64,000 bases of DNA from Escherichia phage phiWec179. Positions 22,113 through 22,488 of the stretch are shown piece after piece (the first letter of the stretch is position 1; every line of letters begins with the position of its first letter). The position numbers and the translations under genes are program-made. The stretch is from the sequence record LC739533.1. One strand, given 5' to 3'. The notes under the pieces were generated by a model. It was not told where the DNA came from. It was given only the letters and a program-made list of their open reading frames with translations, and did no database searches.

Positions 22113-22430
22113 GTTGATCTCCTCTGTTATCGTGTTCTTGGGATGAACTCTAACATATGTAAGATCTAAAAGTCAACTAATTCTTTTAACTACTAACTAA
22201 TAATAATTATTTTCTTTTTTGTTAGTTAGTTTGTTGATCAGTATAGAGCAGATCTGTTACTATCTAACTGTCTTTAAGATCTTTAAAACCTAAGTCTTTT
22301 AGATCGAGCATATACTTAACCAATAAAAACAAGACCTTAACTCGCTGCGCTCGTTAATAGGTTTTTAGGGTATCACATTTCGATAATCAAAGTCAAGACA
22401 ATTTTCAAACTATTTTTCATTGTGCAAAGC

Positions 22431-22458
22431 TTGTGTTCTTTGGTGTATGTGCTATAGT
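22431..22458 (+). promoter_or_regulatory. Sigma70-like promoter for rightward early operon
   Basis: TTGTGT -35, 16-nt spacer, TGc-TATAGT extended -10, 30 nt upstream of ATG 22489. Confidence 0.4.
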
Positions 22459-22488
22459 GAATAAACTTAAACAAGAGAGGAGATATAA

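What the first reader, a model, noticed from the sequence alone, without database searches (positions are those of the whole stretch)
22113..22488. Divergent control region with inverted repeats and repeated AGATCT palindromes
This 375-bp AT-rich non-coding region separates leftward and rightward gene blocks. It contains a 9-bp inverted repeat (ACTAACTAA ... TTAGTTAGT, 22192-22230), at least three AGATCT palindromes, and an extended -10 promoter facing right. It could be an operator set for a phage regulator or a replication origin.
Basis: seen in the sequence. Interest (0 to 1): 0.35.

Follow-up and report, generated by a model that had tools for sequence, protein, structure and literature searches.

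The report
Divergent phage early-promoter hub with hairpin

Summary
The window is a phAPEC8-like myovirus, 100% identical to Escherichia phage phiWec181/186 (Phapecoctavirus). The 376-bp gap at 22113-22488 is real, has 30.6% GC and separates a leftward block (small genes and a tRNA array) from a rightward block of small early genes.

On their own they are weak: a 9-bp inverted repeat as long appears in 16% of shuffles, the AGATCT clustering has P of about 0.09, and only one AGATCT (22277) is conserved in relatives.

What is conserved is four sigma-70-type promoters with extended -10 elements. They form two back-to-back modules:
- P_L2 and P_R2 flank the AT-rich inverted-repeat segment.
- P_L1 and P_R1 form the second module.
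- The inner promoters, P_R2 and P_L1, face each other about 90 nt apart.

Promoter hexamers are invariant in 79% of columns, against 47% for their spacers.

The most constrained element is a 27-nt run (22334-22360) at about +1 of P_L1. Its core also occurs, 100% identical, in unrelated bacterial contigs as the apex of hairpins whose outer stems covary. On the - strand this core contains GCGCAGC, an instance of the extra-stable GCGNAGC mini-hairpin.

Verdict: an ordinary divergent early-promoter hub. Operator and origin roles are not demonstrated. The hairpin is unexplained.

The parts
22113..22488 (.). Whole divergent intergenic region. GC is 30.6%. The part at 22143-22343 is the least stable duplex of the 64-kb window.
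22147..22176 (-). P_L2, the proximal leftward sigma-70-type promoter: -35 TTGACT (22176..22171), 18-nt spacer, TGt, -10 TAGAGT (22152..22147). Predicted start is near 22140, followed by RBS GAGGAG and the ATG at 22112. AGATCT at 22162 lies in its spacer.
   Evidence: Score 14.7. Same alignment columns in all 7 genomes.
22177..22233 (.). AT-rich segment (about 85% AT) between the -35 elements of the back-to-back P_L2 and P_R2. It contains the inverted repeat 22192-22200 / 22222-22230. It is most likely a shared upstream (UP-like) region; the exact repeat is clade-specific.
22234..22263 (+). P_R2, the distal rightward promoter: -35 TTGATC (contains GATC), 18-nt spacer (contains AGATCT at 22250), TGt, -10 TACTAT. 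Predicted start is near 22270.
   Evidence: Score 11.5. Conserved position in 7 of 7 genomes, where it scores 12.4-13.5 in the phAPEC8 clade.
22269..22306 (.). AGATC-repeat segment. It holds AGATCT at 22277-22282 (the only AGATCT conserved in all relatives, at about +8 of P_R2), the direct repeat GTCTTTAAGATC (22270-81) / GTCTTTTAGATC (22294-305), and AGATCG at 22301-06. A third copy of the motif GATCTWAAAGWC lies inverted at 22161-75.
   Evidence: In phage UP17 the equivalent place holds a 48-bp AT-rich palindrome bounded by AGATCT.
22334..22360 (-). Invariant 27-mer ACCTTAACTCGCTGCGCTCGTTAATAG. Its core, 22337-22357, is a hairpin apex. On the - strand it reads TTAAC-GA-GC-GCA-GC-GA-GTTAA and contains the GCGNAGC mini-hairpin motif. 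It lies at about +1 to +27 of P_L1 and about +65 to +91 of P_R2.
22367..22396 (-). P_L1, the distal leftward promoter: -35 TTGACT (22396..22391), 18-nt spacer, TGa, -10 TACCCT (22372..22367). Predicted start is near 22360.
   Evidence: Score 13.1. Both hexamers and the TG are invariant in all 7 genomes, while the spacer is 61% invariant.
22431..22458 (+). Predicted start is near 22465, followed by RBS GAGAGGAG and the ATG at 22489.
   Evidence: Score 10.5. It reaches the score threshold only in the phiWec181 clade.

Best explanation
The region is the main divergent early-promoter hub of a lytic Phapecoctavirus, read by the host sigma-70 RNA polymerase straight after DNA injection.

It is built from two back-to-back promoter modules:
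- **Module A:** P_L2 (leftward) and P_R2 (rightward), sharing a 57-bp AT-rich upstream segment.
- **Module B:** P_L1 (leftward) and P_R1 (rightward), sharing a 34-bp AT-rich segment.

The outer promoters, P_L2 and P_R1, sit about 25 nt from the ribosome-binding sites of the two flanking genes. They drive the leftward operon (small genes and tRNAs) and the rightward small-gene operon.

The inner promoters, P_R2 and P_L1, face each other with predicted starts about 90 nt apart. They add a second, long-leader transcript in each direction, and they probably interfere with each other or produce complementary leader RNAs.

The leftward inner transcript begins with a strictly conserved hairpin. My preferred guess is that it acts at the RNA level as a 5'-terminal protective or terminator-like hairpin. 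A role in single-stranded DNA is the main alternative.

The ACTAACTAA inverted repeat and two of the three AGATCT sites are incidental features of AT-rich upstream and spacer DNA.

**Shown here:** the sequence matches, their enrichment, their positional conservation, and their fit to the phage's other promoters.
**Inferred:** actual transcription starts, timing, interference, and any hairpin function.
For: - **Enrichment:** a position-weight scan finds four sites scoring 10 or more in 752 nt (both strands), against 0.85 expected from the window's own density (P = 0.011). All four have a TGn extended -10.
- **Score calibration:** sites scoring 11 or more are 3.6-fold enriched in intergenic DNA (19 of 62 sites fall in 8.7% of the sequence). 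The intergenic ones point the same way as the downstream genes. They include a tandem series through the leftward block at 22396, 22176, 21924, 21353, 20764, 19751, 18521, 15101 and 13408.
- **Family resemblance:** all four share the phage's promoter pattern of an AT-rich upstream region, TTGAC[AT], a 17-18 nt spacer and TAnnnT.
- **Conservation:** P_L2, P_R2 and P_L1 fall on identical alignment columns in 7 genomes from two clades. Across the eight hexamers of all four promoters, 38 of 48 columns are invariant, against 33 of 70 spacer columns (Fisher P = 5e-4) and 48% for the gap overall.
- **What distant relatives keep:** blastn retains only 22331-22428, which is the hairpin plus P_L1.
- **Leaders:** P_L2 and P_R1 are followed by a ribosome-binding site and ATG at normal distances.
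Against: - No transcript mapping exists for this genus in the searchable literature, so every start site is predicted.
- P_L1 has an unusual -10 (TACCCT), and all but P_R1 use a suboptimal 18-nt spacer.
- P_R1 is weak or absent in the phAPEC8 clade.
- Only two clades carry the region, so the footprinting is shallow.
- The hairpin is not unusually stable under standard energy models on either strand (z about 0). An RNA-stabiliser or terminator role is therefore a guess.
- The conserved AGATCT at 22277 and the GATC overlapping the -35 of P_R2 are not explained by the promoter model.
Confidence: 0.7

Rival explanations
1. The region is a replication origin activated by transcription. The AT-rich segment acts as the DNA unwinding element. 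Transcription from the flanking promoters opens the duplex. The - strand then extrudes the extra-stable GCGCAGC mini-hairpin, which serves as a single-strand initiation signal for a primase.
For: - 22143-22343 is the least stable duplex of the whole 64 kb at window sizes of 40, 60, 100 and 200 bp (-1.125 against a mean of -1.318 kcal/mol per bp, about 4.7 sd).
- It coincides with the cumulative GC-skew minimum.
- GATC density is the highest in the window.
- In the phAPEC8 clade, a 48-bp AT-rich palindrome and AGTACNG heptamer repeats lie just downstream of P_R2.
- The - strand apex matches GCGNAGC. That motif is reported at G4/St-1/alpha3 primase start sites and in RSF1010 ssiA (PMC13037366).
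- Two plasmid-like contigs with a RepA_N initiator carry the same hairpin.
Against: - GC skew follows gene orientation: the single + gene inside the leftward block has a skew of +0.23. The skew minimum is therefore not independent evidence.
- DnaA-like boxes are at chance level (2 against 0.9 expected).
- The GATC clustering is not significant.
- No conserved iterons are shared by the two clades.
- No initiator gene is recognisable nearby.
- AT-richness is equally expected of upstream promoter elements.
- Most bacterial copies of the hairpin sit next to ordinary chromosomal genes.
Confidence: 0.12
2. The region is an operator set for a phage-encoded regulator. The AGATCT-centred motifs (GATCTWAAAGWC at 22161-75, 22269-83 and 22294-306), the ACTAACTAA inverted repeat, or both, bind a phage protein that shuts off or balances the divergent promoters.
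For: - Three copies of a 12-15-nt motif surround the AGATCT/AGATCG sites. One lies in the spacer of P_L2 and two lie at about +1 to +37 of P_R2.
- AGATCT at 22277 is invariant in 7 of 7 genomes.
- Phage UP17 has two AGATCT sites bounding a palindrome at the same place.
- The extended inverted repeat folds better than shuffles (z = -3 to -5).
Against: - Two of the three AGATCT sites and the whole ACTAACTAA repeat are absent from the phAPEC8 clade. These segments have only 22-38% invariant columns.
- The clustering is marginal.
- The motif does not accompany most of the phage's other early promoters. The exception is an AGATCT at about +8 of the leftward promoter at 1933.
- No helix-turn-helix or other DNA-binding family is detected in ten flanking proteins.
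Confidence: 0.1
3. The region encodes a small-RNA or antisense module. P_R2 and P_L1 exist mainly to make short RNAs. One would be about 95 nt, running rightward and ending at the hairpin plus U-run. The other would be about 40 nt, running leftward and consisting of the hairpin plus a U-rich tail. These RNAs would pair with each other or titrate a host factor. On the rightward RNA the conserved element might instead be a boxA-like Nus-factor site.
For: - The promoters face each other and the transcripts would overlap by about 90 nt.
- U-rich tracts follow the hairpin on both strands in both clades.
- GCTCGTTAATA at 22349-59 matches the published boxA consensus GYTCTTTAANA at 10 of 11 positions.
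Against: - The terminator scan finds nothing here.
- Hairpin energy is ordinary.
- There is no Rfam match.
- One-off boxA matches occur at chance frequency (15 against 13.9 expected). The mismatch is within the boxA core, where single changes at other positions inactivate it.
Confidence: 0.13

Closest known systems
Tandem and divergent host-polymerase early promoters of lytic coliphages (T7 A1-A3, T5 early promoters, T4 early promoters)
   Same: Strong sigma-70-type hexamers, AT-rich upstream regions, frequent extended -10 elements, several promoters in series ahead of small early genes, and use of the host polymerase before phage proteins exist. The comparison with T7, T5 and T4 rests on established knowledge.
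   Different: Here two bidirectional modules are interleaved, so the inner promoters face each other. No start sites have been mapped. The 18-nt spacers and the TACCCT -10 are unusual.
Face-to-face promoter switches of temperate phages (coliphage 186 pR/pL, P2 Pe/Pc)
   Same: Convergent promoters a few tens of nt apart, whose transcripts overlap and can interfere with each other (established knowledge).
   Different: This is a virulent phage. No repressor or Cro-like gene lies next to the region. Each convergent promoter also has a partner firing in the opposite direction.
GCGNAGC 'mini-hairpin' DNA elements at primase or polymerase entry sites (G4/St-1/alpha3 complementary-strand origins, RSF1010 ssiA, N4 virion-polymerase hairpin promoters)
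   Same: The - strand apex GCGCAGC is an exact GCGNAGC instance (N = C, reported Tm 71 C). It is embedded in a longer hairpin in a phage control region (PMC13037366, PMC3201870).
   Different: No primase or virion-polymerase dependence has been shown. The flanking TTAAC/GTTAA arms and the tandem G.A mismatches are not part of those known sites. The same apex occurs next to ordinary bacterial genes.
T4 oriF/oriG and the T7 primary origin (a promoter plus an AT-rich unwinding element)
   Same: Promoters lie next to the least stable duplex in the region. In the phAPEC8 clade an AT-rich palindrome lies directly downstream of P_R2.
   Different: In the window's own clade the most AT-rich segment lies upstream of both adjacent promoters, not downstream. 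There is no evidence of R-loops or of initiation here.

Membership tests
Sigma-70-dependent (extended -10) early promoter | -35 and -10 hexamers close to TTGACA/TATAAT with 16-18 nt spacing and TGn upstream of the -10 | tested here: met
   Four sites score 10.5-14.7, all with TGn. About 0.85 would be expected, P = 0.011.
Sigma-70-dependent (extended -10) early promoter | Correct orientation and distance relative to downstream genes | tested here: met
   P_L2 and P_R1 lie about 25 nt upstream of the RBS and ATG of the flanking genes. P_R2 and P_L1 point toward the same operons but have leaders of 219 and 248 nt.
Sigma-70-dependent (extended -10) early promoter | Key positions conserved in relatives while spacers drift | tested here: met
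   Hexamers are invariant in 38 of 48 columns, against 33 of 70 for spacers (Fisher P = 5e-4). Three of the four sites are at identical columns in 7 genomes.
Sigma-70-dependent (extended -10) early promoter | Mapped transcription start, sensitive to rifampicin, active before phage protein synthesis | not testable with these tools
   No transcript data found.
Iteron/DnaA-type replication origin | Repeated initiator-binding sites (iterons or DnaA boxes) conserved in relatives | tested here: not met
   DnaA-like boxes: 2 against 0.9 expected. The AGTACNG repeats exist only in the phAPEC8 clade and the GATCTWAAAGWC repeats mainly in the window clade.
Iteron/DnaA-type replication origin | AT-rich DNA unwinding element | tested here: met
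   Least stable duplex of the 64 kb at all scales tested. This does not distinguish an origin from upstream promoter DNA.
Iteron/DnaA-type replication origin | Strand-compositional switch independent of transcription | tested here: not met
   The skew minimum is at about 22 kb, but skew tracks gene orientation.
oriC-like Dam/SeqA GATC cluster | GATC density well above background and conserved | tested here: not met
   Six GATC in 200 bp is the window maximum but has P of about 0.64. Only one GATC column is conserved in 7 of 7 genomes, and one more in 6 of 7.
Repressor/operator switch (lambdoid or P2/186 type) | Adjacent gene for a DNA-binding regulator, and repeated operators conserved with it | tested here: not met
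   Ten flanking proteins have no DNA-binding family hit in Pfam or PHROGs. The candidate operators are poorly conserved.
Intrinsic (rho-independent) terminator | Stable GC-rich stem directly followed by a U-tract | tested here: inconclusive
   The scan finds none in the gap. The hairpin folds at -7 to -8 kcal/mol, z about 0. U-rich tracts follow it on both strands.
boxA Nus-factor antitermination site | Match to GYTCTTTAANA on the transcript | tested here: not met
   GCTCGTTAATA matches 10 of 11 positions, with the mismatch at position 5. One-off matches occur at chance frequency.
GCGNAGC mini-hairpin / single-strand initiation signal | GCGNAGC sequence at the apex of a hairpin | tested here: met
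   The - strand of 22337-22357 contains GCGCAGC. The outer stems covary in other contexts.
GCGNAGC mini-hairpin / single-strand initiation signal | Supports primase-dependent priming on single-stranded DNA | not testable with these tools
   This needs an M13 ori-defective complementation assay or an in vitro priming assay.
Known RNA family (Rfam 15) | Covariance-model match | tested here: not met
   No hit in the gap at E of 1 or less, and none on the hairpin in nine bacterial loci.

The most novel reading that the evidence does not exclude
The invariant 21-27-nt hairpin apex (TTAAC-GA-GC-GCA-GC-GA-GTTAA on the - strand) would be a previously undescribed element shared by a coliphage and phylogenetically distant bacteria and plasmids. 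It would work through an extra-stable mini-hairpin, for example as a priming or polymerase-entry signal in single-stranded DNA. That would make this gap the phage's transcription-activated replication origin. Alternatively it could be a protein-recognised RNA hairpin placed at the 5' end of transcripts.
Probability: 0.12. Interest if true: 0.65.

Novelty: new member of a known kind. Interest (0 to 1): 0.38.

Why it matters
Phapecoctaviruses are widely isolated and used as therapeutic candidates against E. coli, yet their transcription programme and replication origin are unmapped. A concrete promoter map of the main divergent early region gives testable start sites. It also gives engineering handles, for example places to insert payloads under early control. 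The conserved hairpin shared with unrelated bacteria is a small, well-defined element of unknown function that simple assays could test. If it proved to be a priming signal, it would locate the origin for this whole phage group.

Tried and rejected
- **GATC/AGATCT clustering as an oriC-like signal:** not significant and mostly not conserved.
- **The perfect 9-bp inverted repeat as an operator:** within chance and clade-specific.
- **Stable RNA hairpin or terminator at the 27-mer:** ordinary folding energy on both strands with RNA and DNA parameters, and no terminator call.
- **Small ORFs in the gap:** only ORFs of 33 aa or fewer with TTG/GTG starts. The 22-codon ORF over the repeats lies in a segment the phAPEC8 clade does not share.
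- **Rfam:** no family matches in the gap or on the bacterial hairpins.
- **Borrowed host sequence:** no match in E. coli genomes or plasmids.
- **boxA:** 10 of 11 positions, but at chance frequency.
- **DnaA boxes:** at chance level.
- **GC-skew minimum as origin evidence:** explained by gene orientation.
- **Physical genome end:** the nieznany record begins and ends inside this gap, but that is an untrimmed assembly overlap with a 63-bp indel.
- **Deeper footprinting:** the left-gene family has only two 90%-identity clusters. IMG/VR holds one contig.
- **Loosened 17-mer search in viral contigs:** returned only coding-sequence coincidences without hairpin context.
- **Literature:** no transcript or origin mapping for the genus and no mention of the hairpin sequence.

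Full report
**Identity and setting.** The window is a phAPEC8-like myovirus. Positions 21000-24000 are 100% identical to Escherichia phage phiWec181 and phiWec186 (Phapecoctavirus, Stephanstirmvirinae). They are about 94% identical to phiWec188, phiWec190 and PsgM04F, and about 84% identical over 55% of the length to some 65 phAPEC8-clade genomes. The gap at 22113-22488 lies between a leftward gene (21921..22112) and a rightward gene (22489..22701). The leftward gene heads three small ORFs and a leftward tRNA cluster spanning 19056-21113. The rightward gene heads a long run of small ORFs of unknown function. No feature is annotated in the gap in the phiWec or phAPEC8 records.

**The observation.** All the stated features exist:
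- AGATCT at 22162, 22250 and 22277.
- The 9-bp inverted repeat at 22192-22200 / 22222-22230.
- A rightward extended -10, TGcTATAGT, at 22450-22458.
- GC of 30.6%.

Statistically they are modest. A perfect inverted repeat of 9 bp or more appears in 16% of dinucleotide shuffles and in 11 of 170 equal-sized windows. Three AGATCT within 130 bp has P of about 0.09, and six GATC within 200 bp has P of about 0.64. AGATCT is over-represented throughout the window. The extended imperfect hairpin around the repeat does exceed shuffles (z = -4.9 with RNA parameters, -3.2 with DNA parameters).

**What relatives conserve.** Sensitive blastn with the gap alone shows that the phAPEC8 clade keeps only 22331-22428, at about 80% identity. 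That stretch contains neither the AGATCT sites nor the inverted repeat. A seven-genome alignment shows a common architecture despite only 48% invariant columns overall.

**Promoters.** A sigma-70 weight-matrix scan gives four sites in the gap, all with a TGn extended -10:
- P_L2 (-): TTGACT, 18-nt spacer, TGt-TAGAGT; score 14.7.
- P_R2 (+): TTGATC, 18-nt spacer, TGt-TACTAT; score 11.5.
- P_L1 (-): TTGACT, 18-nt spacer, TGa-TACCCT; score 13.1.
- P_R1 (+): TTGTGT, 16-nt spacer, TGc-TATAGT; score 10.5.

About 0.85 such sites are expected from the window's own density (P = 0.011). The score is meaningful in this genome. Sites scoring 11 or more are 3.6-fold enriched in intergenic DNA, and the intergenic ones point toward genes. 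They include a tandem series running through the leftward tRNA block. All share AT-rich upstream DNA.

P_L2, P_R2 and P_L1 occupy identical alignment columns in all seven genomes. Hexamer columns are invariant in 38 of 48 cases against 33 of 70 for spacers (Fisher P = 5e-4). P_L1's hexamers and TG are 100% invariant. P_R1 passes the threshold only in the window's clade. In the phAPEC8 clade the 70-aa first gene is absent, and a different promoter-like site lies nearer the next gene.

**Architecture.** The four sites form two back-to-back modules:
- **Module B:** P_L1 and P_R1, separated by 34 bp.

P_L2 and P_R1 have leaders of about 25 nt to a ribosome-binding site and ATG. P_R2 (start near 22270) and P_L1 (start near 22360) face each other, so their long leaders overlap by about 90 nt. 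The overlap is longer in the phAPEC8 clade, which has an insertion there. The AT-rich segment fits shared upstream promoter DNA: its AT-richness is conserved, but its sequence and the repeat are not (38% invariant).

**The AGATCT motifs.** Longer copies of GATCTWAAAGWC surround three sites (22161-75, 22269-83, 22294-306). AGATCT at 22277, at about +8 of P_R2, is invariant in all seven genomes. In phage UP17 two AGATCT sites bound a 48-bp AT-rich palindrome at that place. One other promoter, at 1933 (-), also has AGATCT at about +8, but most early promoters lack it. GATC also arises from TTGATC -35 hexamers. I cannot assign a function. A regulator site or an effect of Dam methylation on P_R2 remains possible but unsupported.

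**The invariant hairpin.** Positions 22334-22360 are identical in both clades. The probability is 0.002 even at 80% per-site identity. The core 21-mer is unique in the window. An exact search of metagenomes recovered the phage and also nine unrelated loci. A scan of reference genomes found one Ignavibacterium MAG.

In those other contexts only the core is shared. It forms the apex of longer hairpins whose outer stems differ but stay complementary. All 7 variable pairs show changes on both sides, and the covariation score is 0.216 against 0.075 +/- 0.025 in shuffles, with 0 of 500 shuffles as high.

The neighbours are ordinary genes: lspA/rluD, a gamma-glutamyltranspeptidase, a NifH-like ATPase, a tRNA, and a RepA_N plasmid initiator. 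In four bacterial contexts, as in the phage, a leftward gene starts 25-82 nt to the left of the motif.

On the - strand the apex reads TTAAC-GA-GC-GCA-GC-GA-GTTAA. It has tandem G.A mismatches and GCGCAGC, an exact instance of the GCGNAGC mini-hairpin. That motif has a reported Tm of 71 C for N = C, and is reported at G4-type primase start sites, RSF1010 ssiA and N4 hairpin promoters (PMC13037366; also PMC3201870).

Standard energy models see nothing special in the phage copy (z about 0). They do see structure in the bacterial copies (z about -5). There is no Rfam, plasmid, E. coli or literature match. Because the search required an exact match, the true family may be larger and more variable.

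In the phage the hairpin sits at about +1 to +27 of P_L1. That position fits a 5'-terminal RNA hairpin, an operator at the start site, or a structure extruded when the promoter region is unwound.

**Origin hypothesis.** In favour:
- The gap is the least stable duplex of the 64 kb at every scale tested.
- It coincides with the cumulative GC-skew minimum.
- It has the highest GATC density in the window.
- It carries a mini-hairpin of the kind seen at priming sites.

Against:
- Skew follows gene orientation.
- DnaA boxes are at chance level.
- No iterons are shared between the clades.
- No initiator gene lies nearby.
- AT-richness is expected of promoter upstream regions anyway.

I rate this hypothesis at about 0.12.

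**Other readings.**
- An operator/repressor switch is not supported, because no DNA-binding neighbour is detectable.
- A boxA-like element (10 of 11 positions) is at chance frequency.
- A small-RNA or antisense pair is possible given the facing promoters and the U-rich flanks, but there is no terminator call.

**Verdict.** This is an ordinary kind of element, a divergent host-polymerase early-promoter hub, described here in more detail than in any record. It has an unusual interleaved layout and one unexplained, strictly conserved hairpin.

Noticed in passing
window 22489-22701: The first rightward gene (70 aa) matches no PHROG or Pfam family and is absent from the phAPEC8 clade. It looks like an insertion between the promoter region and the conserved leader of the next gene (22774..23097).
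   Followed up: partly
window 22746-22758: A short GC hairpin, GCGTCAGAGACGC, lies just upstream of the ribosome-binding site of gene 22774. It is conserved in both clades. The terminator scan flags it on the - strand.
   Followed up: no
window 13380-22396, - strand: About ten strong, co-oriented sigma-70-like promoters are spread through the leftward small-gene and tRNA block (22396, 22176, 21924, 21353, 20764, 19751, 18521, 18092, 15101, 13408). This suggests the tRNA array is transcribed from many internal promoters.
   Followed up: partly
window 1845-2001: A second divergent gap holds a tight back-to-back pair of strong promoters (1933 -, 1948 +; scores about 16). An AGATCT lies at about +8 of the leftward one, the same offset as AGATCT 22277 from P_R2.
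   Followed up: no
whole window: GATC (337 against about 236 expected from base composition) and AGATCT (37 against 20.8 +/- 4.6 in shuffles) are over-represented across the phage sequence. There is therefore no avoidance of Dam or BglII-type sites.
   Followed up: no
L002 1454-1497, L005 1398-1445 (phAPEC8 clade): The phAPEC8 clade has AGTACNG heptamer repeats and a 40-48-bp pure A/T palindrome between P_R2 and the hairpin. In UP17 the palindrome is bounded by AGATCT on both sides. Both features are absent from the window's clade.
   Followed up: partly
L009/L010 (MN850598.1 nieznany, record ends): The deposited nieznany genome starts and ends inside this gap. The two ends overlap by about 230 bp, and one copy lacks 63 bp (the AT-rich segment plus P_R2). 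This is probably an untrimmed circular assembly or a length variant at the AT-rich stretch.
   Followed up: partly
L015, L021, L025: In three bacterial contigs the hairpin unit is tandemly duplicated, with periods of 115, 56 and 118 bp. In the Ignavibacterium MAG the duplicated unit includes the 3' end of a tRNA gene.
   Followed up: no
window 22106-22128 and 22473-22495: The two divergent genes have near-mirror translation starts (RBS GAGGAGAT, and ATGAGTA as the first codons). This gives a 23-nt inverted repeat with 83% complementarity across the gap.
   Followed up: no
OR584014.1 (PsgM04F): A phage reported on Pseudomonas coronafaciens pv. garcae is 99.5% identical to this E. coli phage across the gap and 94.7% identical over 3 kb. 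That is surprising for the stated host.
   Followed up: no
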